64,000 bases of DNA, taken from assembly GCA_000002445.1 (NCBI GenBank), contig AL929603.2, positions 1,000,673-1,064,672 on the forward strand, read 5' to 3'. The notes beneath the pieces are model-generated. The model saw only the letters and a list, made by a program, of their open reading frames with translations, was not told the DNA's origin and searched no databases. Position 1 is the first letter of the stretch. Every line of letters starts with the position of its first letter. This DNA comes from Trypanosoma brucei (lineage: Eukaryota). A program made the position numbers and the translations under genes. This document shows positions 41,474-64,000 of this stretch, one piece after another.

Positions 41474-43957
41474 ATGCTGGCCACATCAAGGTGGTGCCAG
41501 GGTCCAGTACCCCGTATCATCGGGGGAAGCCAAGAGCCAGCAGCGTTCCTTTCATGGGGAACAATGCTTTGCTTCGGCTACGGCATCATACAGCACAGGG
41601 ATCAGCAGCGTCTTGCTGGGACACCGTTTTTCATTTGTTGGTCCCTGGGCACGTGCCAGCGTGCCATCAGCAGTATCATCCGCACTAAGATGCTGCTGTC
41701 CGGTGATGTGGAAGAGAATCCCAGCCCGTCGTTGCGCGGGATGCAGTGGAACTGCGCCGGGCTATCTCAAGGAAAGAGATTAGCACTCCACAAAACCCTT
41801 GTTGATGAGCGGATCGCCTTTTGTCTGTTGAGCGAGACAAGGATGACGCCTGGAGAGGCGGCTTGCTTTAGCGTTGCTGGCTGCCAACATCACGGAAAAG
41901 CTCGTAACTGCAAAGGAGGTGGTGTATCAATACTAGTGAGGGAGGACCTACCAATCGAGACAGGTATGGCTGTTGTTGGTCGCATTGAACAAGTGCATGC
42001 AACAATTCACCTTGCACGTGAAACGGCACTGACCGTCACGTCGGCATACATCCCACCAAAACACACCTTCACGGCAACTGACCTAGATACGCTTCTTACG
42101 ACTGACGGTGCCCAGCTCATCGGTGCAGACGCTAACGCACACGCGTTGGCATGGGATCGCGCGAGCCCACCAAATACCAAGGGTGAAACCCTCACACAGT
42201 GGTGCATTGACAACCAGTTTCTGGTCTGCAACACTGGTGAGTGCACCAGGTACGCGCGCCACCACGGGGAGTCCACCCCTGATGTGACACTGTCAAGGAA
42301 TTGCACAGTGTACACGTGGACATCGCTGTATTCTCCCGATAGCGATCACCATCACATATTTTTCGACGTTATCGTTGGAGACGACACAGATGCACTGAGT
42401 TGCCCGCAGCTTCGAAAGCCCATGTACGCATGGCTAAAAGCTAACTGGAGGAATTTCCGTCTCAAGGTTGACGAGCTCTGCAGGAAAATTGGCAGAGAGA
42501 AGAACGTCAACACCCTGGAACAGAAATTGAGCTCCGCCATCCGCACTGCGACGAAGGTCTCCGTCCCCCGTGGCTGCAGAGCAACGCCACCACATTGGAC
42601 ACCTGCGCTCGCGAAACTCGATGAAGAGATCGCTGGATGCGGACCCTCCTACCGAAGGGAAAAGTTGGTAGCCACGCGTAAGCAGATCCTGGACCGTACC
42701 ACAAAGAAGAGATGGAGCACGCTATGCTCCAGACTTGCGGTGTCAGACCGCTGCAGTTGGCACATTGTCAAGAAGGTATATGCGCCACGACCACTAACCA
42801 CACTGACGGTACTGGTTGATAACGTGGCCATCACAGACTACCGTCAAGCTGAGAGGTTCAGTAAACTGTACTTGTCCCGCGCAAGAAGGCACCCCGACTC
42901 ACACCCACCGGCACCAATAAAGACGATAGCGAGTGAGTTCAGTCCCATCACGATGGCTGAACTACGGAGATCGATCAAACTGCTTCCGAGTGGATCCGCA
43001 GCCGGACCTGATTGCTTACACAACGAGGCACTGCAACATCTCGGTAGAACAGCGCTGAATGTTGTTCTGAGGCTATTCAATGAGAGCCTACGAGCGGGAG
43101 TCGTGCCGCCTGCATGGAAGACTGGTGTTATCATCCCCATCCTGAAGGCCGGAAAAAAGGCGGAGGACCTCGAATCTTACAGGCCTGTGACGCTCACGAG
43201 CTGTCTCTGCAAAGTCATGGAACGCATAATTGCCGCGAGGCTTAGAGACACTGTTGAGTCCCAGCTGACGCCGCAGCAATCAGGCTTTCGCCCCGGATGC
43301 TCAACGCTCGAACAACTGCTGCACGTCCGCGCTGCCCTCTGCCGTCCCACGCACCAATATCGTACGGGTGCTGTATTCGTTGACTACGAGAAGGCATTCG
43401 ATACAGTAGACCACGACAAAATTGCGAGGGAAATGCACATAATGAAGGTATCACCCCACATTGTGAAGTGGTGCGTATCATTTCTGAGTAACCGAACTGG
43501 CAGAGTGAGATTCAAGGAGAAGCTTTCCAGAAGCAGAACATTTGAGCGAGGAGTGCCACAAGGAACTGTCCTTGGCCCAATCATGTTCATTATTGTCATG
43601 AACTCGTTGAGCCAACGCCTTGCAGAAGTGCCGTTACTGCAGCACGGATTCTTTGCAGACGACCTGACGCTACTTGCGAGACACACAGAGAGGGATGTCA
43701 TCAACCACACACTACAATGCGGTCTAAACGTGGTGTTACAGTGGTCAAAAGAGTACTTCATGTCTGTCAACGTAGCGAAAACGAAGTGCACACTCTTCGG
43801 GTGTACAGAGCGCCACTTCCTTACATTGCAACTGGACGGCGAAAGAATAGGAGCTGACAGGACACCGAAGCTTCTAGGAGTAACATTCCAGTGTCTGCAA
43901 GGGATGGGAACACATGCGGCCGAAACGAGATGCAAGATGGACTTCAGACTACTGTAG
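41474..43957 (+). pseudogene. ingi ORF fragment: endonuclease plus reverse-transcriptase domains, 827 aa, terminated by an in-frame stop.
   Basis: RT palm motifs include YRPVTLTSCLCKVMERI, VFVDYEKAFDTV and GFFADDLTL. The next ORF at 44042 is in the same frame. Confidence 0.75.
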
Positions 43958-44041
43958 ATAGCAGCCATCTCAGCTTCTACATGGGGGCCAAGACGATAAG
44001 TACTGAGAGCTTTTTATCTAGCACTCGTACAGGCACACACC

Positions 44042-46450
44042 ATGTATGGCATTGAGGTATGGTACTGGGACGCTTCGGAACGAAGTCGCGACCTCCTTGC
44101 ATCAGCACAACACAAAGCCAGTTGCATCATAGCTGGCATACCACATGGGACGCGCAAAGAGGACTCTCTGCTGGAAGCAAACATCCTGCCACTCAAGACG
44201 GCCACTCTTGTGCGCAGCATGAAATTCGTGCTGATGTGTGAGTCACGAGGCGGATGTTTGCGGCGCAGTGCTGAAGAAGTATACCACAGCAAACACCCAG
44301 TCAGAGCCCTACATTCCCGCATCATGCGGTCCTATCCCCACCTCCGCATTGAGCCACGCGAGAACCCACTAGAGACATCGACGCTCCGCCACAGCTGCCG
44401 ACCGCTATTTCACACGCAGATAAAGCCTGTGTGCGCTGGTGACCCTGACGATGTCAAAAGGGAGGCTTCCGAAAAGTGGATTGAACGGCATTTTGCACGG
44501 AGGGGGAAGGAGCCACCGCGGCGAGAGCACTACGAATTGTGGACTGATGGATCCGTGTCCCTCGGTGAGAAGTCCGGAGAAGCTGCCCTTCTCTATAGAA
44601 ACAACACGCTGATTTGCGCACCCAAAACTGGAGCAGGGGAACTCTCATGCAGTTACAGAGCGGAATGCGTAGCATTAGAGATAGGACTGCAACGGCTGCT
44701 GAAATGGCTTCCGGCATACAGAAGCACACCGAGCAGGTTGTCCATCTTCTCTGACTCGCTGTCAATGTTAACAGCACTGCAGACAGGCCCCCTAGCCGTA
44801 ACGGACCCAATTCTGAGACGACTATGGAGGCTTCTGCTTCAAGTTCAGAGAAGGAAGTTGCGTATCCGACTGCCATTTGTGTTTGGCCATTGTGGCGTGA
44901 AACGGAATGACGTTTGCGATGACATGGCGAAAAAGGCCACTGATTTACCACAGTTGCGAGACACATTGATCCCCGACATCATTGCTTATGCGAAGCGAGT
45001 GATTAGGTCGGAAGAAGTCCATGAGAACACTCATAGGTTTGGTATCACGGGAAACCACTTTCCAACAAAACATAAAGAAGAACTGACGAGGGAAGAAGAA
45101 ACGGCACTGGCACGCTTTCGAGTTGGGTCTTCAAGACACTATGGATGGATGTTGCGAAAGATCAACCCGAGTGTGCCTCCACAGTGCCGATGGTGCAACC
45201 CGCAACATGCAGAGATAGGGCCAACAATACAAACGGCCCCAACTGTTGCGACACACACTCTTCAGAGAACCTCCGAACCAACTAAATGTACGGAATGTGA
45301 TGCCACATACCAATGCCGCTCGAGTGCTGTAATGCATATGGTAAACAAACATGGCTTTGTGCGAGCTGATGCCCTCCGGAGGATCAAATACGGCGATGCA
45401 ACACCCGCAGTGGACATCCCCCCGGAGCCCCCTCCAGTGGTGGCGATCGTTCCTCTACCATCGAGCACACGAGTCCCAATGAGACCGCAGGTGCTTCATT
45501 GTACCCTTCTGTGCCTCCAAATTCGCAGTGCCAGGCCGACTATTACACCACCTTAGAACAATACATGGCATAGGCAGCGGTAGTTGCCGCGTGAAAAGGG
45601 GGCGAGAGAACGAAGACTCATTGCAAGGAGATGGTAGAGCCCCAGCAGCGCCAGCCTCTCAGGATACACGGAAGCTGCCGTTTCAATGTGACCTGTGCGA
45701 GGCGAGCTTCGGTACACGTTCTTCCCTGTCACTACACAAGAAATTCAAACATAAAAGCATAGTGACGGAGGACGGTAACTTTGTGGCGGTGGTGCAATTC
45801 CCTCGTAAGCGTGCCCGTGAGGGAAACGTTGACGTCCCGGGGAAAGGCGAGGTGCAGTGTGGTGTGTGCCAAAAAGTGCTCAGTTGCAGGGACTCCCTCA
45901 TCCGACACTGCAAGGCTTTCTATAAAGGTGAGGAAGTCGAACTTAAATACAGCAAGAGCACAAAATTGTGTGCCACTGATTCCCCGCATACAAACGCATC
46001 CATGTTGGTTTGCCCGACATGCGGGAGGCGTGTGCTAGCAAAACTGGCCTCACCCTACATCAAAAGAAGATGCACGGTATGAAGGTAGAGCGCGCTGTTA
46101 CCAGCCAACGCGGCGACTGCGAAGAAACGTCGCTGCACTTGATGAGCTGTCCCGGTTTGAAGGAGTTACGTGTCAGGTTTGCGGTAGAAGGCGTGTGTGT
46201 GCAGGATGTATGTTTCTCTAAAAGGCTGGCGCAGTTTCTCATTGCGGTTGAACGGAGCCGGCCGCAGGTGAAGTCCTCACCTAAGGTAACAGTCATACAA
46301 CCCACTCTCCCTTCTGCAACTTCCCCCCTTATTGCCGAGTGTGGAGCTAGCAGGAAAAGCACCGGACGCAGGAATAGTCCAGACACCCTTAGAGACAGAG
46401 GGGGTATGCAATCAACAAGCAACAGAAACAGAAAGAGGGAGAGAGAATAA
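44042..46450 (+). pseudogene. ingi ORF fragments: RNase H and C2H2 zinc-finger region, split by two frameshifts.
   Basis: RNase H D/E/D signature residues are present. Three CxxC...HxxxH fingers are present. The frame changes at about 45528 and about 46010. Confidence 0.7.
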
Positions 46451-55569: not shown

Positions 55570-57183
55570 CTAAAAGTCTTTACAATTCTGAAATGCTTCC
55601 AAACTAAAAAATGCAGCAGCTATCAGAGCCAATTTATTATTTACAATAAAGCTACAAAGGCTGTGCTTTTCTTTTTCTGGCTCATCTTCACTTTCTTTTC
55701 CCTTTCTGAATGCGCAATTTTGTTTATCCCCCGTTTTGTCATTTTCACAAGCTGTCTCGTCAGTGCCGTGTTTTGCACACCAAGCTGAAGCTGCTCTCTC
55801 TTTCTTTTGATCTCCTGCAGTTCCTGTTCCTGTTCCTGCTGCTGCATTTGTTTGTCCTTCTCCATCTTTAGGTTTGCAGGGACCATCTGTTTCAGTTTTT
55901 CCTTGCCATTTGCAGTTAGCCTCTGTGCATGCAGTTTTATTGCTTTTTTGTTGTTTGCATCCTTCTTTATCTTCTTTGGTCTTTGAGCTTAAGCTCTTTG
56001 TCTCGACGGTTGTGGGGGGTTCTGTTAGCGCTGTCGCACAAGCATACGCTGCTTCTCGTTCTGCTTTTAGTTGGTGGTTTATATTTTTTATCGCCGCGGC
56101 CGCCGCTTCCCGTAGCTGTAGGTCTTGGGCGAGGTTTACAAGTTTCACTACCCATGGGATGTCCGTGAACTTTTTGTCGCCCTTCCCCGTGAAATCGCTG
56201 TATTTGACGCATACCCCCGCGTCTGAGCTTCCGTCGCAGTTGCTTTTGGTTACTGTTTTGCCGAGGAAACCGGCGTTGTTAAGTTTGACTACCATGCTGT
56301 TCAGTTCTCTTATCGGAGTTAGGAGCGCATCGGCACTGATCACCGCTCCGTCGTCGTCTGGGCATTCGCCGGCTAGCTGTGTCCACACTCCTAAGGCCGG
56401 GGGTGCCGCCGTTGTCCAGGTCGTTGTTACAGTTTGGCCAGATATGCAGGCTCCGCCCGGTTGGTTTGCGGCTGCTTCGGCGCATACGCACATTAGCGTC
56501 GCGGCTGCTGTCGTTGCTGGGTGGTTGGCGATGTTTCCACCGCAGGCATTCGAGCGTCCGCTGTTGGCGCCTCCTGAGAAAGTTTTTGCTATTGTGACAC
56601 TTGCTTTATTACCGACGTCATCCCCCAACACCGCGTCTTTAAGCTTCTTGGGGTAATCAGCTGCTGTTGGTTTTGCTGCTGCTGCTGAGTATTGTTTTCC
56701 TTCTGTTAATAGGGCCTGCGCCCGTGCTAAGTGTGCTTGGACTCTCATTTGTGCTGCCCATCTTCTTCCGGGCGTAAGGTTGTTGAAGCCTGCTTCTTTT
56801 ATTCTTGTAGCCGCTGCTGTGTCCGGCCGCGTGGCTTTGTAAGCTAGAACCCATTGTCGCCATTTGTTGTGCCAGTCCTTAGCGATATTGTCGTCCGTTA
56901 CGTTAGCCTTTGTTTTCATCTCCTCTAGGGTGTCTGTGACTTCGGCTTTTGCAAATTTTGCTTGCCATGTTGCTGGGCTTAGACTGATGTTTAGTTCTTC
57001 CATTTCTGTGACAGCTGCCGTGTTTAGCGTCGCGTGCGGTCCTAGCGCTGGTGATTTTTCCGCAAGGGCCACAAGCTTGCACAGTTGTCGGAACACTGCT
57101 CCGTTGTCGGCCGGTCCGACGTCGCTAGTGGCTTGTTTGGCTGAGAGGAAAAGTGCCAGGAAAAGAAATACCGGCAGTAGCAT
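55570..57183 (-). CDS. VSG: VSG, 537 aa, with an aberrant C-terminal extension. It may be a nonfunctional or archive copy.
   Basis: Has a signal peptide MLLPVFLFLALFLSA, an N-terminal VSG domain with an early Cys (FRQLCKLVALAEK), and a C-terminal domain cysteine pattern (CKPKDGEG...CAKHGTDETACENDKTGDKQNCAF). Its GPI-signal-like end is SLCSFIVNNKLALIAAAFFSL, but it continues EAFQNCKDF past the expected stop. Confidence 0.85.
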   Translation of the reverse strand: MLLPVFLFLALFLSAKQATSDVGPADNGAVFRQLCKLVALAEKSPALGPHATLNTAAVTEMEELNISLSPATWQAKFAKAEVTDTLEEMKTKANVTDDNIAKDWHNKWRQWVLAYKATRPDTAAATRIKEAGFNNLTPGRRWAAQMRVQAHLARAQALLTEGKQYSAAAAKPTAADYPKKLKDAVLGDDVGNKASVTIAKTFSGGANSGRSNACGGNIANHPATTAAATLMCVCAEAAANQPGGACISGQTVTTTWTTAAPPALGVWTQLAGECPDDDGAVISADALLTPIRELNSMVVKLNNAGFLGKTVTKSNCDGSSDAGVCVKYSDFTGKGDKKFTDIPWVVKLVNLAQDLQLREAAAAAIKNINHQLKAEREAAYACATALTEPPTTVETKSLSSKTKEDKEGCKQQKSNKTACTEANCKWQGKTETDGPCKPKDGEGQTNAAAGTGTGTAGDQKKERAASAWCAKHGTDETACENDKTGDKQNCAFRKGKESEDEPEKEKHSLCSFIVNNKLALIAAAFFSLEAFQNCKDF

Positions 57184-57599
57184 TGGCTGCTGTGTAACTT
57201 ACTTTGTCGGCGTATGTGACTCTGTGTTGGCTGCAGTTGCTGGCCCCTGCCCTTGGATTCCGCCTATGTATATTTTTTTACTCGTGAATTACTTGGTATG
57301 TTCTTTTCGTTTGCGTCTAATCTTCAGCGTGGAATTATTTTGTGTGTAACTAGTGATAGTTGTGTGGTATTTGACGGTATTTGCAGACTGTGCTCGTGCA
57401 TGTACATTATTCTTTGGTTTTGCTTGGACTTTTGCTGTTTTTACTCAGATTAGTAGACTTTCATAAGGTATTTTTTTAGTTGTAAGCATGGCATCGATGT
57501 GTGTCGCTGTTGCCTGCTTCTTCTTTTTGAGTCTTGTACTTGCCAGTGCGTATGCTTTCTCACTTTATATTTATTGGAATTTGTTAGTTGACGTTGTCA

Positions 57600-58653
57600 A
57601 AACCATTTTGCGACTGCTGATTGGCATCGCAACTTCTTCGCTACAAATAATTCCCTTTCTTTTAACGTATCACCACATATTTTCTGATCTTCAAAATCTC
57701 ACCAACCCCCATCCACCGCATAGCTTTGAATTTCACCAAAATCCTTCGCACTAAGCTGCTTCTTTTCCAATTCTCTATCCAAAATATGATTCTTCACAAT
57801 CAATTTCGCTTTTTCCTCCCACGCAATAGGCTGTGCCGGAAAGTGAACAGATACCACCTATCCAACTTCACCATTATTTGGAATAGAAAAGCCTCTTCTC
57901 ATAATCCAATGCAATCATTCCTCTCTACAAAACAAATCACTGTCCAACAGCTTCTTCCTGAGTGGCACTCCATATTAACAACGGTTTGTAAATACTCTGC
58001 TCTGACCACCACTCCTCACTTCCCTTTAGTAACTCTCCAAAAGCATATTCAAATTTTATTAAATGCCCAAACTCTTGCGATTATATTTCCACCTCCAAGG
58101 TAAGGGTTTCCACTAGGAGGTGATTTCAGTAAATGCGGTAATTTTTTATCTTATTCTTTTCTGTAACCGACATTAAAGAGCCAATAGCATCTTACTCTAT
58201 GGTCTTTGTAATCTGAGCTCATAAGTAAATCAAACTGAGGAGCATAACACTCTGATGTTATCATGAGTAGAGTATTTCACAGCATTTTCATACTTTTCTC
58301 CATCACTGACAATAACGTCAGAACCCATCAAAATGAATTACAATATCCTCATCGCTTGCATTCTGTTTCCCTAAAATTCCATAACCTATCTACGCCTCTT
58401 AGCATGACTATACAAACCTCCCATTGAAATTGTAATAATTTCAATATGGCTTAGTTTCGCACTCAATATTTTTCTATATTATCCTTGAGTTGTATGAATA
58501 TGAACAACAACCACAAATACTTATGTTTCTTAGCGTCATTCTCTACTACATTTGTTATAATTGCCTTTATGTGTTATTGAATTTTTTAAAGCTTTAATAT
58601 ACTACATGTAACAGTAACAGTAATAGTAAAGTTCTCAAAATAAGAAATCTCAT
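57600..58653 (-). pseudogene. ESAG3-like or glycosyltransferase-like pseudogene, copy 2. It is a diverged duplicate of 47331..48375.
   Basis: The nucleotide sequence 57.7-58.6 kb aligns with 47.4-48.35 kb, for example atcctcatcgcttgcattctgtttccc with atcctcatcacttgtattctgtttctcc. No long ORF remains. Confidence 0.5.
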
Positions 58654-59408
58654 GACGTAATCTTCCTTTAAAATTTAAGCGCGTTATAAGAAAAGTATTA
58701 GAAGCCTTAATAAAGAAAAAACGTCGCGAGACTCACTGTTAAGTTAAGGAAACAGCATTTTCATATATGAGTATTTACTTTATATTGTTATGTTGTTTCT
58801 GTTGAGTGTATTTTCAGCGTATGAACCTTGTCTTTCATTAGTTACCCACAGTGTTTTCTATGTCAGCTTTAGTTACACCTAGTTCTGTAAACTACGTGAA
58901 TTTCACTATTTGTTTCATTTACATTTCTTTTCTATGTATTTCTGTTGTTATTTAAGATGGTATTTACACTATTCCCTTTGTATATGCTAAAATGCTTACC
59001 CTTTTACTTTGATAAGTGCTTCGACCATTCGCTTTTGTCACAATATTAATATCACTATAGCTCTATAAGTTACTTCTAACATTGTAGCTACTCCATTTAC
59101 AGAATAACACTCATTTATTCTGCATCAACTACGTGGTGTCATTGGTTTATTTTTTTATTTGGCGCTACGCTTCACTGTGCGATACTCTGTCGTTTCACTC
59201 TGGATTTTCTTTTTTGTTTTCTGTTATATTATCGCTCTCTCAGCGAAAAAGGTAGTACCTCCATTTGTCCAGTACACTAGACTCTGTCTCTTCCTACTAT
59301 ATTGTTCAATTAAAAACCTCCTTTTTATCAACAATGATATTGATCGTCATGTTTAAGTTTGAAACTGTGCATATTTTAATCCTTTCTCATTTTCACACTT
59401 TATTTCTC

Positions 59409-59641
<233 letters not shown>

Positions 59642-59699
59642 AAATATAATAATAATATTAATATTATAAATAATAAAATGATCATAATGATGGTAATAC

Positions 59700-60527
59700 A
59701 ATAACTAGCAGAGTGTGTCGTGAGTGTGCATATACGAATATACTATACGAGCAGTAATGATAATGATAATGATAATGATAGGAGAGTGTTGTGAGTGTGT
59801 ATATACGAATATTATGATGAGAGCAGTAATAATAATAATGATGATGATGATAATTATAATAGGAGAGTGTTGTGAGTGTGTGTATACGAATATTATAATA
59901 AGAACAGTAATAAATATGATGATGATAATAATAACAGGAGAGTGTTGTGAGAGTGTGTATATACGAATATTATGATGAGAGCAGTAATAATAATAATGAT
60001 GATGATGATAATTATAATAGGAGAGTGTTGTGAGTGTGTATATACGAATATTATAATAAGAACAGTAATAAATATGATGATGATAATAATAACAGGAGAG
60101 TGTTGTGAGAGTGTGTATATACGAATATTATAATAAGAGCAGTAATAATGATGATGATGATAATGATAATAATAGGAAAGTGTGGTGAGTGTGTAGATAC
60201 GAATATTATAATAACACCAGTAATAGTAATAATAATAATAGGAATGTGTTGTGAGTGTGTGCATATACGAATATTGTAATGAGAGCAGTAATAATGATAA
60301 TAATAATAGGAGAGTGTTGCGAGTGTGTGTATACGAATATTATAATAACACCAGTAATAGTAATAATAATAATAATGATAATAGGAGAGTGTTGTGAGTG
60401 TGTGTATACGAATATTATAATAAGAACAGTAATAATAGTAATGATAATGATAGGAGAGTGTTGTGAGTGTGTATACACGAATATTATAATAAGAGCAGTA
60501 ATAAATATGATGATGATAATTATAATA
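59700..60527 (+). repeat. Tandem array of about 11 T. brucei-type 70-bp repeats (70-84 bp units) in + orientation, toward the telomere. The assembly gap truncates it.
   Basis: The repeated unit is (TAA/TGA)n ATAGGAGAGTGTTGTGAGTGTGTATATACGAATATTATAATAAGAGCAGTAATAA, with variants ggaaagtgtggtgag and ggaatgtgttgtgag. Confidence 0.9.
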
Positions 60528-60627
60528 NNNNNNNNNNNNNNNNNNNNNNNNNNNNNNNNNNNNNNNNNNNNNNNNNNNNNNNNNNNNNNNNNNNNNNNNN
60601 NNNNNNNNNNNNNNNNNNNNNNNNNNN
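60528..60627. other. Assembly gap: a run of 100 N.
   Basis: Direct read. Confidence 1.
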
Positions 60628-60690
60628 AGGATTAGGATTAGGATTAGGCTTAGGATTAGGATTAGGATTTTGGTTACTCGGTTAGGGTTA
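60628..60690 (+). repeat. Variant telomere-like hexamers, (TTAGGA)~6 with one TTAGGC, degrading into ..ggttactcggttagggttaa.
   Basis: Direct read: aggattaggattaggattaggcttaggattaggattaggattttggttactcggttagggttaa. Confidence 0.85.
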
Positions 60691-60899
60691 ATTTTTTCCT
60701 CTTTTTTTTAAGTCATTTTTTAGTCATTTAGTGATGCAAGGGCTCTTTTCTTATATTTTGCGGCGGCGCTGGCAATGCGGTTTTTAAGTCTTTTTTTATT
60801 AACGACAGGTTGCTGATTTCTTAATTCACTTTCTTAATTCATTTTTTTTAATTTTCGGTTTGTCGCGGGTTTGTGGTTATTTATTTTAAATTTTCTTTA

Positions 60900-63436
60900 A
60901 CCATGCAGCGGCTGTTTTATTATGCGAACCCTAACCCTCCTCGCCCCCCGCGCCCGCACGCCCTCCGCGGGGACTCCAGTCTTTATTCACGATTTATTAT
61001 TTTTTTTTAGCGCAAGCACCTCCACTTTTTTTGTCGCCCTGACACTTAATTTTCATTTTTCATTTCGAATTTTTTTCACTTGTTTATTTAAATTGTTAAT
61101 TTTTCTTTAACCATGCACCAGCTGTTTTATTATGCGAACCCTAACCCTCCTCCCCCAACGCACGCACCCCGCGCCACACCTCCAGTTTTTTTAATTTTTA
61201 ACATCGGTTTTCGCGTTTAGTTCTTTTTAAATCTTGTCTTTTTTGTTTTGAATTTGAATTTTAATTTTTTTGTATTTTAATTTTCCGAAGTTTTGATTTT
61301 AATTTTTTTACAACCACAACTGCGAACTTTTTTTTGTCTTCTTGGTTTTTCGAATTTTTTTTTGACACCGCCTTTTTTTTGTTTTCAATCTTTTTAGTTT
61401 TTTTTCAGTTATTTTCTTTAATCCTTTTTTTTATTTTTCGAATTGTTTTTCGGTTTTTTGCGCGGTTTGTGGTTAGTTTTTTTAATTAGTGATGCAGCTG
61501 CAATTTTATTATGCGGACCCTAACCCTCCTCCCCCCCCGCCCCACGCGCCCCCCGCGCACGCAGCTCCAGTTTTTTTTCATGATTTATTATTTTTTTTAG
61601 CCATTCACGGCTCATTTTTTTTTCGCTCTGACGTTCAATTTTTTTTTTGTTTTTTTTAATTTTTTAAAAAAGTGATGCCGCGGCTCGATTTTACATTTAT
61701 TTTTTTGTATTTTAATTTTTTCGAATTTTTCGGTTTGAATTTTTTTTCTTTAGCCGTGCAGCGGCTGTTTTATTATGCGAACCCTAACCCTCCTCTCCCC
61801 CCCGCCCCACGCGCCCCCCGCGCACGCAGCTCCAGTTTTTTTTTTAGAATTGTTTTTTCGTGATTCTTTTTTAGATATTTCCAATTTTGCAATGCACGAA
61901 TTTTTTTTTAGCGCGGCTTTCCACGGCACTTTTTTTAACCCTTTTTTTCACTCTTCATTTTTGTATTTCGTTTTTTTTCTATTTTCCGAGTTTTTGAATT
62001 TTTTTTAGGGCTAGGTTTTTTTAAAGGTTTTTAGATTTTTTCTTTAATCCCTTTTTTGTTTTCTTTCTTTTGCGCGGTTTTTTTTGCGTTCATTTTTGGC
62101 CTTTTTTCGAATTTTTTTGTTTTTATTTTTGACCCCCGCCGAAACTTTTCGTTTAATTTTTTATTTTTTAAAATTTTTAAAAATTTTTTGTTTTAGCGCT
62201 CAATTTTTTTTTACGACCATTTTTGTTCGAAGCACACAAAGCGGTGTTTCGGGTTAGCGGGTTCGGGTTAGGGTTAATTTTTTTCATTCCAGTTTTTTTA
62301 TTCCGCAACTCTGTCCTGCGTTGTTCTGATTTTTTATTAATACTGCGGCGGCAGTTTTATCTTGCGGTGGCGTTTAATTTATTTTTTTGTGTGTTATTTA
62401 AATTTTTTTTTAAATGATGCAGCTGCAATTTTATTATGCGGACCCTAACCCTCCTCCCCCGCCCCCCGCCCGCGACCCACGAGAAGCTTTTTTTAAATTT
62501 TTAATTTTAATCCTTTTTTTTGTATTTTGATTTTTTCGAATTTTTCGGTTTGGTTTTTTTTTGCACCACTTTTCAATTTTTTAATTTTTTTAAAAGTGAT
62601 GCAGCGGCTCTTTTATTATGCGGAGCCTAACCCTCCTCCCCCCCGCACGCGCCCCCCGCAAACGCACCTCTTTTTTTTTAAATTTTTTTTAGCGCGTCCT
62701 TCAACCACAATTTTTAACCTTTTTTTTATTTTCCGACTTTTTAAATTTTATTTTTTTTGTTTTTTGAGTTTTTCGAATTTTTCAGTTTGTGGTTAGTTTT
62801 TTTAATTAGTGATGCAGCTGCAATTTTATTATGCGGACCCTAACCCTCCTCCCCCCCCGCACACGCACCCCCCGCGCAACCACCTCCAGTTTTTTAAATT
62901 TTAAATTGTTTTTTTTGTTTTGAATTTGAATTTTTTAATTTTTTAAAATTTTTTTTTAATTCAATTTTTAAATTTTTAATGACGATGCAGCGGCTATTTT
63001 GTTATGCAAACCCTAACCCTCCTCCCCCCCCCGCGCACGCCCTCGCACGCGCACCTGTTTTTTTTAAATTTTTTGGTTTTTTTTTCGCGGTTTGATTTTT
63101 TTTTTGTATTCTTGACTTTTTCGAATTTTTTTGACCTCAATGTTTTTAGATTTTCAGATTTTTCGAATTTTCTATTTTTAAACTTTCCGTTTTTTTTGGT
63201 TTTAATATTTAAATTTTTGATTCTTTTTTTTTATTTTTGCGAGATTTTAATTTTTTTTATATTTTTGAGTTTTTGTTTTTTTTTAACGAGCGCCAGCAGT
63301 TTATTTATATGTTTTTTTTTATTTTTGATCCCCGCCGAATCGTTTCGTTCAATTTTTTATTTTTTATTTTTTTAAATATTTTAAAATTTTTTGTTTTAGC
63401 GCTCAACTTTTTTTTTTTGCGGCCATTTTTGTTCAA
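60900..63436 (+). repeat. T-rich subtelomeric higher-order repeat with eight copies of a ~60-bp core carrying an inverted telomere hexamer pair.
   Basis: The core is GTGATGCAGC(G/T)GCnnTTTTATTATGCG(G/A)ACCCTAACCCTCCTCCCCCC..CGCxCACGCAxCTCCAGTTTTTT. Copies lie near 60905, 61115, 61490, 61755, 62415, 62600, 62810 and 62990. An interstitial seed ..gggttagcgggttcgggttagggttaa sits at 62248-62290. The segment 62130-62290 is duplicated at 63320-63480. Confidence 0.85.
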
Positions 63437-64000
63437 AACGGAACCCGCTGTGTGACGGGTTCGGGTGTTTCGGGTTAGCGGGTTCGGGTTCGGGTGTTTC
63501 GGGTTAGCGGGTTCGGGTTAGGGTTAGGGTTAGGGTTAGGGTTAGGGTTAGGGTTAGGGTTAGGGTTAGGGTTAGGGTTAGGGTTAGGGTTAGGGTTAGG
63601 GTTAGGGTTAGGGTTAGGGTTAGGGTTAGGGTTAGGGTTAGGGTTAGGGTTAGGGTTAGGGTTAGGGTTAGGGTTAGGGTTAGGGTTAGGGTTAGGGTTA
63701 GGGTTAGGGTTAGGGTTAGGGTTAGGGTTAGGGTTAGGGTTAGGGTTAGGGTTAGGGTTAGGGTTAGGGTTAGGGTTAGGGTTAGGGTTAGGGTTAGGGT
63801 TAGGGTTAGGGTTAGGGTTAGGGTTAGGGTTAGGGTTAGGGTTAGGGTTAGGGTTAGGGTTAGGGTTAGGGTTAGGGTTAGGGTTAGGGTTAGGGTTAGG
63901 GTTAGGGTTAGGGTTAGGGTTAGGGTTAGGGTTAGGGTTAGGGTTAGGGTTAGGGTTAGGGTTAGGGTTAGGGTTAGGGTTAGGGTTAGGGTTAGGGTTA
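63437..64000 (+). repeat. Telomere: a degenerate transition (gggttc / gggtgtttc / gggttagc) into about 85 perfect GGGTTA (= TTAGGG) hexamers running off the window end.
   Basis: Direct read. The G-rich strand runs 5' to 3' toward the window end, as expected for a right chromosome terminus. Confidence 0.97.

What the first reader, a model, noticed from the sequence alone, without database searches (positions are those of the whole stretch)
60628..63518. Telomere-adjacent higher-order repeat built from inverted CCCTAA cores and three telomere-seed junctions
Between the 70-bp repeats and the true telomere lie about 2.9 kb of extremely T-rich sequence (on the + strand) with strong strand asymmetry. 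This sequence contains eight copies of a ~60-bp GC-rich core. Each core carries CCCTAACCCT, the telomere hexamer in the opposite, C-strand orientation, followed by a C-rich run and CTCCAGTTTTTT. In addition, the same short junction (degenerate GGGTTx hexamers, then gggttagggttaa, then a T-run) appears three times, at about 60.67 kb, 62.28 kb and 63.48 kb. Only the last of these continues into a real telomere. The roughly 160 bp upstream of the junction is also duplicated (62130-62290 matches 63320-63480). This is the pattern expected if a terminal block was tandemly duplicated 2-3 times. It is also the pattern expected from successive breakage and telomere healing that left interstitial telomere seeds. 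From memory I cannot match this architecture to the 29-bp subtelomeric repeats, the 177-bp repeats or the 50-bp repeats known in T. brucei. It may therefore be an undescribed or poorly assembled terminal repeat class. The inverted CCCTAA pairs could form binding sites for duplex telomere-binding factors in reverse orientation.
Basis: seen in the sequence. Interest (0 to 1): 0.75.

Follow-up and report, generated by a model that had tools for sequence, protein, structure and literature searches.

The report
Trypanosome chromosome-end repeat block, duplicated
The 2.9 kb next to this Trypanosoma brucei telomere is non-coding, repetitive "telomere-associated" DNA made of two tandem copies of a 1.2–1.6 kb module, a real but ordinary kind of chromosome-end structure that appears to match one described for this parasite in 1991.

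Summary
The window is the VSG-array end of T. brucei TREU927 chromosome 1 (exact protein matches). This DNA holds eight copies of an ~85-bp G+C-rich element. Its invariant 13-mer CCTAACCCTCCTC occurs 8 times against 0.08 expected, and nowhere else in the window.

The block consists of two colinear modules of four cores each. Each module ends in a conserved ~160-bp segment, a 29-bp telomere-derived repeat and GGGTTAGGGTTA. The inner module end abuts the next module's T-run. The outer one continues into (GGGTTA)82. A third seed with the same boundary opens the contig.

The whole layout fits, from my memory of Weiden et al. 1991, the described VSG-less telomere structure.

My best reading is a non-coding telomere-associated sequence array, expanded by unequal recombination or break-induced copying between chromosome ends. 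I found no coding or RNA signal. I could not test recurrence at other telomeres with these tools. Interest is low to moderate.

The parts
60528..60627 (.). 100-N scaffold gap between the 70-bp repeat array and the terminal contig. This is context, not part of the repeat.
   Evidence: the only N run in the window
60628..60694 (+). J1: an interstitial, degenerate telomere tract that opens the contig. It reads (AGGATT)7, then TTTGGTTACTC, then GGTTAGGGTTAA, and abuts a T-run.
   Evidence: period 6, 7 copies, 60628-60669
60695..62242 (+). Module B1: T-rich DNA with degenerate half-boxes, four G+C-rich cores, a T-rich stretch, and a conserved segment before the junction.
60892..60979 (+). Core 1 (GC dyad box, TTTTATTATGCG, CCCTAACCCTCCTC, C-rich tail, CTCCAG)
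61102..61185 (+). Core 2
61481..61570 (+). Core 3. Positions 61465-61540 are 100% identical to 62785-62860 in core 7.
   Evidence: (D1)
61745..61835 (+). Core 4
62111..62242 (+). Conserved segment before the junction, inner copy. It matches 63307-63455.
   Evidence: D16 83%, D18 92%, D20 73%
62243..62277 (+). J2: one 29-bp telomere-derived unit plus GGGTTAGGGTTA. 62243-62276 is 34/34 identical to 63493-63526. It is followed by A and the T-run that starts module B2.
   Evidence: (D17)
62278..63455 (+). Module B2: a colinear copy of B1 with four cores, and shorter spacers.
62406..62487 (+). Core 5
62588..62670 (+). Core 6 (variant GCCTAACCCT)
62801..62889 (+). Core 7
62974..63057 (+). Core 8
63307..63455 (+). 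Conserved segment before the junction, terminal copy
   Evidence: D16, D18, D20
63456..63524 (+). J3: 29-bp telomere-derived repeat, CGGGTTCGGGTGTTTCGGGTTAGCGGGTT, 2.4 copies
   Evidence: period 29, 97% matches, score 131
63509..64000 (+). Terminal telomere tract (GGGTTA)82, G-strand on the + strand, running to the window end

Best explanation
The block is the non-coding telomere-associated sequence (TAS) of a VSG-less end of T. brucei TREU927 chromosome 1.

Structure (shown). It is a short tandem array of ~1.25-1.6-kb modules. Each module:
- begins with a T-run that directly abuts a truncated telomere tract (...GGTTAGGGTTA|ATTTTTT);
- carries four ~85-bp G+C-rich elements separated by 84-295 bp of DNA rich in T-tracts;
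- ends in a conserved ~160-bp segment and a 29-bp telomere-derived repeat.
The outermost module runs into the real (TTAGGG)n tract.

Origin (inferred).
- One ancestral fusion of a very short telomere to the start of a TAS created the seed|T-run boundary.
- Unequal sister-chromatid or ectopic exchange, or break-induced replication primed from an eroded end on another TAS, then copied whole modules together with their seeds.
- Gene conversion kept parts of the cores and the junction nearly identical, while the slippage-prone T-rich spacers drifted.

Function (inferred). The block acts mainly as a structural buffer and as a recombination substrate between chromosome ends. The cores offer a single inverted TTAGGG 1.7-mer and a G-quadruplex-type motif on the strand opposite the telomeric G-strand. 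Whether these are used is not shown.

As I recall it, this is the same architecture that Weiden et al. 1991 described for minichromosome telomeres lacking VSG genes: GGGTTA repeats, a 29-bp telomere-derived repeat, then 74-bp G+C-rich direct repeats separated by ~155 bp of bent A+T-rich DNA.
For: - Provenance: five window ORFs are exact matches to TREU927 proteins on a 1,064,672-bp record. The last VSG is annotated 'VSG, atypical' in TREU927.
- Repeat family: 8 cores, with the 13-mer found 8 times against 0.08 expected.
- Module colinearity: the longest self-alignment, 61058-62271 against 62373-63478, has 64% identity over 1265 columns. In the global alignment all four cores and both module ends are in register.
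- Boundaries: J2 and J3 share 34/34 identical bases up to GGGTTAGGGTTA (D17). J1 and J2 share the same seed|T-run boundary.
- A 29-bp repeat lies at the telomere junction.
- Reticulate similarity among cores. In the left halves, core 3 is 95% identical to core 7 and core 1 is 88% identical to core 2. In the right halves, core 3 is 82% identical to core 4. This fits gene conversion.
- Non-coding: no frame is conserved across the copies, there are no Pfam hits, no Rfam hit, and single-strand folds are not better than shuffles (z from -0.4 to -1.8).
- T-tract starts are enriched at 9-10 bp spacing (z 4.7-4.9). This is compatible with the reported bent character.
- 7 of 8 cores carry a G4-type motif on the minus strand, against none in the other 60.5 kb.
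- Roughly one third of minichromosome telomeres lack a VSG (PMC8402208).
Against: - The link to Weiden et al. rests on my memory of the abstract. The paper and its sequences could not be read or aligned.
- The sizes fit only loosely. The G+C-rich part is 51-60 bp, or 82-91 bp with the left box, against the recalled 74 bp. Spacers are 84-174 bp in five intervals, but 295 and 570 bp in two (the 570-bp interval spans the module boundary at J2).
- This end has no 177-bp repeats. It lies on a megabase chromosome next to a VSG array.
- No other T. brucei chromosome end could be examined. So the claim that this is a family shared between ends, and the recombination mechanism itself, are inferences from a single locus.
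- Global T-tract periodicity is not significant.
- Identity between the modules' spacers is only ~64% in low-complexity sequence.
Confidence: 0.7

Rival explanations
1. Successive independent chromosome breaks, each healed by telomerase on a short seed and each followed by addition of new terminal DNA, left the interstitial seeds.
For: Three telomere-like tracts occur in the same orientation. J1 differs in composition from J2 and J3: it has (AGGATT)7 and no 29-bp unit, so it is older or of separate origin. From my own knowledge (Horn and colleagues, 2000-2007), de novo telomere addition on TTAGGG seeds is established in T. brucei.
Against: Healing adds telomere repeats, not a 1.2-kb module. 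J1 and J2 have the same seed|T-run boundary (GGTTAGGGTTAA|TTTTTT). The DNA between the junctions is colinear, with four cores in each module. That pattern fits one junction copied with its module, not repeated independent events.
Confidence: 0.12
2. Assembly or scaffolding artefact. On this view the 3.4-kb terminal contig belongs to another chromosome end, for example a minichromosome. Alternatively its two modules are a mis-join of reads from different, similar ends, and it is not truly adjacent to the 70-bp repeats of chromosome 1.
For: - A 100-N gap lies at 60528-60627.
- The contig starts inside a simple telomere-like repeat.
- The block has no similarity to the rest of the window.
- The plus-oriented 70-bp array points at a VSG that is absent.
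- Stretches of up to 76 nt are identical between modules (D1).
Against: The modules differ at about a third of spacer positions and in length (1583 against 1249 bp), so reads of Sanger length would tell them apart. The contig ends in a long telomere tract, as expected of a genuine end. Even if it is misplaced, the block would still be a real T. brucei TAS.
Confidence: 0.15
3. The cores are selected cis-elements rather than passive repeats. They might be binding sites for TRF or another Myb protein in reverse polarity. They might be G4 or i-motif elements on the strand opposite the telomeric G-strand. They might act as a boundary, position nucleosomes, or serve as origins or TERRA-type promoters.
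For: - The 13-mer containing the telomere motif is the only invariant segment in all 8 copies, while its flanks vary.
- Minus-strand G4 motifs occur in 7 of 8 cores and nowhere else in 60.5 kb.
- Core spacing of 173-264 bp in 5 of 7 intervals is on the scale of a nucleosome repeat.
- In budding yeast, Tbf1 binds subtelomeric TTAGGG repeats (PMC8402208).
Against: Eight paralogous copies at one locus cannot separate selection from gene conversion. Each core holds only about 1.7 hexamers, whereas robust TRF binding usually needs two Myb domains on repeated sites (PMC8402208). No functional or comparative data were available.
Confidence: 0.12

Closest known systems
T. brucei VSG-less minichromosome telomere structure (Weiden, Osheim, Beyer & Van der Ploeg 1991, Mol Cell Biol 11:3823; content recalled from memory, citation confirmed)
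   Same: The order from the chromosome tip inwards is the same: GGGTTA repeats, a 29-bp telomere-derived repeat, then G+C-rich direct repeats of tens of bp set in A+T-rich DNA rich in T-tracts. There is no VSG between these repeats and the telomere.
   Different: Here the block lies on (or is scaffolded to) megabase chromosome 1, next to 70-bp repeats and a VSG array, not next to 177-bp repeats. The unit sizes fit only loosely. I do not recall the two-module organisation with interstitial telomere seeds from that paper. Sequence identity could not be checked.
S. cerevisiae tandem Y' elements separated by short internal TG1-3 tracts, and subtelomeric Tbf1/TTAGGG sites (own knowledge; Tbf1 statement from PMC8402208)
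   Same: Subtelomeric modules are repeated in tandem, with a short telomere tract at each module boundary. The arrays expand by recombination or break-induced replication between ends. Telomere-like motifs lie inside the subtelomere.
   Different: Y' elements are 5-7 kb and encode a helicase. The modules here are 1.2-1.6 kb and non-coding. There is no sequence relationship.
Leishmania conserved telomere-associated sequences (LCTAS, ~100 bp with two conserved blocks, CSB1 and CSB2; PMC8621916)
   Same: Both are short conserved non-coding blocks repeated next to the hexamer repeats in a kinetoplastid, with proposed but unproven protein-binding roles.
   Different: The sequence and unit size differ. 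No homology was tested or seen.
T. cruzi 189-bp telomere junction (PMC6967402)
   Same: A conserved element of under 200 bp lies immediately internal to the hexamer repeats. Compare the ~160-bp conserved segment plus 29-bp repeats here. The T. cruzi element has been proposed to act as a seed or stabiliser for new telomeres.
   Different: The T. cruzi junction derives from gp85/trans-sialidase UTRs. The element here is T-rich with no recognisable gene-derived part.
Human subtelomeric duplicon boundaries with degenerate interstitial (TTAGGG)n, and the CpG-rich 61-29-37-bp repeat TERRA promoters (own knowledge)
   Same: Interstitial telomere tracts mark the borders of duplicated subtelomeric blocks. 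G+C-rich tandem elements lie within ~1-3 kb of the telomere.
   Different: There is no evidence of transcription here. As far as I know, T. brucei TERRA has been attributed to read-through from the active expression site.

Membership tests
Weiden-type T. brucei VSG-less telomere-associated sequence | Terminal GGGTTA/TTAGGG repeats with the G-strand running 5'->3' to the end | tested here: met
   (GGGTTA)82 at 63509-64000 on the + strand
Weiden-type T. brucei VSG-less telomere-associated sequence | A 29-bp telomere-derived repeat immediately internal to the hexamers | tested here: met
   TRF reports period 29, 2.4 copies, 97% matches at 63456-63524. An interstitial unit lies at 62243-62271. Identity to the published 29-mer could not be checked.
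Weiden-type T. brucei VSG-less telomere-associated sequence | G+C-rich direct repeats of ~74 bp | tested here: inconclusive
   There are eight direct repeats. The G+C-rich part is 51-60 bp (GC 0.70-0.80), and the whole conserved unit is 82-91 bp.
Weiden-type T. brucei VSG-less telomere-associated sequence | Repeats separated by ~155 bp of A+T-rich DNA | tested here: inconclusive
   The spacers are 122, 295, 174, 570, 100, 130 and 84 bp (from the coordinates). Start-to-start spacings are 210, 379, 264, 661, 182, 213 and 173 bp. This is the same order of magnitude, but irregular.
Weiden-type T. brucei VSG-less telomere-associated sequence | Bent (curved) character of the A+T-rich DNA | tested here: inconclusive
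   There are 163 T-tracts of 4 or more bases. Their starts are enriched at 9-10 bp spacing (z 4.7-4.9), but there is no significant global ~10.5-bp periodicity (z 2.2). Anomalous gel migration cannot be tested here.
Weiden-type T. brucei VSG-less telomere-associated sequence | No protein-coding gene (VSG) between the repeats and the telomere | tested here: met
   No conserved frame, no Pfam hit, and only mechanical F-rich ORFs
T. brucei minichromosome | 177-bp repeat array internal to the subtelomere | tested here: not met
   There is no long-period tandem repeat in 1-59400. The window holds VSG/ESAG genes and an ingi element of chromosome 1. What lies in the N gap is unknown.
Bloodstream or metacyclic VSG expression-site telomere | A VSG gene between the 70-bp repeats and the telomere | tested here: not met
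   The 70-bp array at 59687-60527 is plus-oriented, but only the gap and non-coding TAS follow it.
Structured RNA gene (including telomerase RNA, whose template is also CCCUAA-like) | A match to a curated covariance model, or a fold better than shuffled sequence | tested here: not met
   No Rfam match at E<=1 in 57000-64000. Fold z-scores range from -0.4 to -1.8.

The most novel reading that the evidence does not exclude
The G+C-rich cores are conserved functional cis-elements of VSG-less trypanosome chromosome ends. Each would present an inverted TTAGGG half-site plus a G-quadruplex on the strand opposite the telomeric G-strand. They would recruit TRF or a G-strand-binding protein to form a subtelomeric boundary, position nucleosomes, or act as an origin or TERRA-type promoter. 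On this reading the module-plus-seed array would be a built-in set of back-up telomere seeds that allow rapid healing after terminal loss.
Probability: 0.1. Interest if true: 0.55.

Novelty: already known. Interest (0 to 1): 0.25.

Why it matters
If the reading is right, this is the ordinary, long-public telomere-associated DNA of a reference-genome chromosome end. Its value is mainly practical:
- It shows that the 29-bp repeats and the G+C-rich/A+T-rich repeats first described on minichromosomes also cap (or are scaffolded onto) a megabase chromosome.
- The interstitial seeds mark module borders and record recombination between ends.
- The junction with the 70-bp array is an unresolved gap, not sequence.

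It would matter more only if the invariant inverted telomere motif and the opposite-strand G4 in each core prove to be conserved across ends and bound in vivo.

Tried and rejected
- Protein-coding reading: rejected. ORFs are F- or K-rich and mechanical, no frame is conserved among the eight copies, and there are no Pfam hits.
- RNA gene or telomerase-RNA-like template: rejected. There is no Rfam hit and no fold signal.
- Hairpin or cruciform in the cores: only 3-5-bp dyad symmetry in the left box, and the folds are not significant. I leave this as a passing note.
- Global helical phasing of T-tracts: not significant. Only local 9-10 bp spacing stands out.
- Copies of the block elsewhere in the window: none.
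- Recurrence outside the window, all attempts empty:
  - exact look-up of three block ORFs;
  - profile search with the frame shared by the cores (one hit at E=4.5, ignored);
  - DNA pattern scans of metagenome contigs and of bacterial/archaeal genomes;
  - look-ups of encoding contigs for the terminal VSG.
- The VSG search returned no hits from read-assembly sources. I took this to mean that T. brucei sequencing runs are not represented, so I did not spend the third protein search or the representative search.
- Literature:
  - Ten full-text searches found no CC-licensed paper describing these repeats or containing their sequence; one further query failed on a term-length limit.
  - Weiden 1991, Hall 2003, Wickstead 2004 and Callejas 2006 are not held.
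Full report
**Where the window comes from.** Five ORFs of the window are exact matches to annotated proteins of Trypanosoma brucei brucei TREU927 on a record of 1,064,672 bp, which is chromosome 1. The last intact VSG (55570-57183, minus strand) is that strain's 'VSG, atypical'. Pfam shows VSG domains, a leucine-rich-repeat protein and an ingi-type reverse transcriptase with RNase H. From my own knowledge, the abstract of Hall et al. 2003 (NAR 31:4864) describes one end of chromosome I as about 50 kb of VSG and ESAG genes and pseudogenes, in which the telomere-proximal VSG is, unusually, oriented away from the telomere. That fits this window. The paper is not held.

**Checking the observation.** The sequence shows a 70-bp repeat array at 59687-60527, then a run of exactly 100 N at 60528-60627, and then the block. 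So the block is a separate contig joined by scaffolding, and its adjacency to the 70-bp repeats is not shown by sequence.

Within 60695-63455 the plus strand is 48.8% T and 17.6% A, with AT skew of -0.41 to -0.53.

Eight homologous cores are present (D1; alignment).
- The 13-mer CCTAACCCTCCTC is invariant in all eight. It occurs 8 times against 0.08 expected, and nowhere else in the 64 kb.
- CCCTAACCCT is present in 7 of 8 cores, and CTCCAGTTTTTT in 4 of 8.
- The conserved unit runs from a short GC-rich dyad box (for example TGCAGCTGCA or CAGCgGCTG), through TTTTATTATGCG and the telomere-like motif, into a C-rich/CGC tail that usually ends in CTCCAG. That is 82-91 bp, of which 51-60 bp are 70-80% G+C.

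**The junctions.**
- J3 (63456-63524) is a 29-bp repeat, CGGGTTCGGGTGTTTCGGGTTAGCGGGTT, in 2.4 copies at 97% matches. It runs into (GGGTTA)82, which reaches the window end.
- J2 (62243-62277) is one such unit plus GGGTTAGGGTTA, identical over 34/34 bases to the terminal copy (D17). It then continues with A and a T-run instead of further hexamers.
- J1 (60628-60694) opens the contig with the variant hexamer (AGGATT)7 and ends in GGTTAGGGTTAA followed by the same T-run.
- The ~160 bp before J2 and J3 match in pieces of 83%, 92% and 73% identity (D16, D18, D20).

**Higher-order structure.** The strongest self-alignment is 61058-62271 against 62373-63478, at 64% identity over 1265 columns. A global alignment of 60683-62277 with 62266-63526 is colinear.
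- The seed|T-run start aligns.
- The four cores pair in order (60930/62444, 61140/62626, 61519/62839, 61783/63012).
- The conserved segment before the junction and the 29-bp unit with its seed also align.

The inner module is longer (1583 against 1249 bp) because of insertions in the T-rich spacers. So the block is two tandem modules of four cores each, plus the distal stub of a third. Because J1 and J2 share the same boundary, the seed-to-module junction arose once and was copied with the module.

Similarity among the cores is reticulate.
- In the left halves, core 3 and core 7 are 95% identical, with 76 nt identical (D1), and cores 1 and 2 are 88% identical.
- In the right halves, core 3 groups with its neighbour core 4 (82%).

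This mosaic suggests gene conversion on top of duplication. Degenerate 'solo' left boxes without the C-rich part lie at about 60731, 61672 and 62340.

**What the block is not.** No reading frame is conserved across the copies, and the ORFs are F-rich or K-rich with no Pfam match. There is no Rfam match at E<=1 on either strand of 57000-64000. Single-strand folds of three cores, on both strands, are not better than shuffles (z from -0.4 to -1.8). The block has no similarity to the other 60.5 kb, and there is no 177-bp or other long-period tandem array in the rest of the window.

**Physical features.**
- Seven of eight cores contain four C-runs spaced as a G-quadruplex motif on the minus strand. 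That is the strand opposite the telomeric G-strand. There are none in the other 60.5 kb.
- There are 163 T-tracts of 4 or more bases against 7 A-tracts. T-tract starts are over-represented at 9-10 bp spacing (z 4.7-4.9). There is no coherent global periodicity. This is compatible with intrinsic curvature but is not proof of it.

**Most likely explanation.** The anatomy shown is that of a telomere-associated sequence array. The origin is inferred as follows.
1. A very short telomere became joined to the start of a TAS module. This step happened once.
2. Whole modules, with their terminal seed, were then duplicated. The likely routes are unequal exchange, or break-induced copying from an eroded end onto another TAS.
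3. Gene conversion homogenised parts of the cores and the junction.

This is the logic of tandem Y' elements separated by internal TG1-3 tracts in yeast, and of degenerate TTAGGG tracts at human subtelomeric duplicon borders (both from my own knowledge).

Independent break-and-heal events are a weaker explanation, because healing adds hexamers rather than modules, and because the boundaries are shared.

A functional role for the cores is possible but untested. Candidate roles are a TRF or Myb half-site, a G4, a boundary, or a promoter or origin. Robust TRF binding normally needs two Myb domains on repeated sites (PMC8402208), and each core has only about 1.7 hexamers.

**Comparison with what is known.** As I recall the abstract of Weiden et al. 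1991 (the citation is confirmed; the text is not held), a subset of minichromosome telomeres without VSG genes carries, from the tip inwards: GGGTTA repeats, a 29-bp telomere-derived repeat, 74-bp G+C-rich direct repeats separated by about 155 bp of bent A+T-rich DNA, and then 177-bp repeats.
- Three of these features are met here: the hexamers, the 29-bp repeat, and the absence of a gene.
- Three are compatible but inconclusive: repeat size, spacer size, and bending.
- The 177-bp array is absent, which reflects the chromosome class rather than the TAS.

Related concepts in other kinetoplastids are the Leishmania LCTAS blocks (PMC8621916) and the T. cruzi 189-bp junction (PMC6967402).

**Limits.** I could not examine any other T. 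brucei chromosome end.
- The exact ORF look-ups, a profile search, three DNA pattern scans and two encoding-contig look-ups were all empty.
- The collections evidently lack T. brucei read assemblies, since the VSG search returned no such source.
- Ten literature searches found no accessible description of these repeats or of their sequence; one further query failed on a term-length limit.

The identification with the 1991 repeats is about 70% confident, not certain.

**Verdict.** This is a real, well-defined structure, and most of its details were described correctly. It is best read as ordinary non-coding telomere-associated DNA of a kind already described for this organism, sitting in a reference genome that has been public since 2003. 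The tandem-duplication reading is supported. The claim of an undescribed repeat class is not. The scaffold gap is an important caveat. Interest is 0.25.

Noticed in passing
window 60528-60627: A run of exactly 100 N (a scaffold gap of unknown size) separates the 70-bp repeat array from the terminal contig. Everything distal to it is linked to chromosome 1 only by scaffolding.
   Followed up: partly
window 59687-60527 (also 49208, 52590, 55397): The 70-bp-repeat core motif lies on the same strand as the VSG it precedes: three minus-strand copies lie just upstream of minus-strand VSG genes or pseudogenes. The large terminal array is plus-oriented, so it points at a telomere-ward VSG that is not in the assembly. 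Either a VSG is hidden in the gap or this end has lost it.
   Followed up: partly
window 55570-57183 (-): The telomere-proximal intact VSG (537 aa, VSG_B plus C-terminal domain, annotated 'atypical' in TREU927) is transcribed away from the telomere. It has no minus-oriented 70-bp motif upstream of it.
   Followed up: partly
window 59409-59688: A pure (ATA)n tract of about 94 copies leads directly into the 70-bp repeat array.
   Followed up: no
window 60628-60669: The terminal contig opens with seven copies of the variant hexamer AGGATT (TTAGGA rather than TTAGGG), with one AGGCTT among them. This is a degenerate interstitial telomere tract unlike J2 and J3.
   Followed up: no
window ~60731, 61672, 62340-62380: 'Solo' copies of the left-hand box of the core (GATGC..GCGGC..TTTTAT) lack the CCCTAA and C-rich part. 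The box shows short dyad symmetry that varies in sequence between copies: TGCAGCTGCA, CAGCgGCTG, GCCGCGGC and CTGCggcgGCAG.
   Followed up: partly
window 61465-61540 and 62785-62860: These 76 nt are 100% identical between core 3 and core 7, while their right halves group with other cores. This mosaic suggests recent gene conversion between modules.
   Followed up: partly
window 60922, 61775, 63004 (+): Several mechanical ORFs start at the ATG inside TTATTATGCGAACCC (MRTLTLL... and MQTLTLL...). They have no Pfam match and their exact sequences are not in the protein collection, so they are not genes.
   Followed up: yes
window 41474-45556 (+): An ingi-type non-LTR retroelement (endonuclease, reverse transcriptase and RNase H in two ORFs) is embedded in the VSG/ESAG array.
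   Followed up: no
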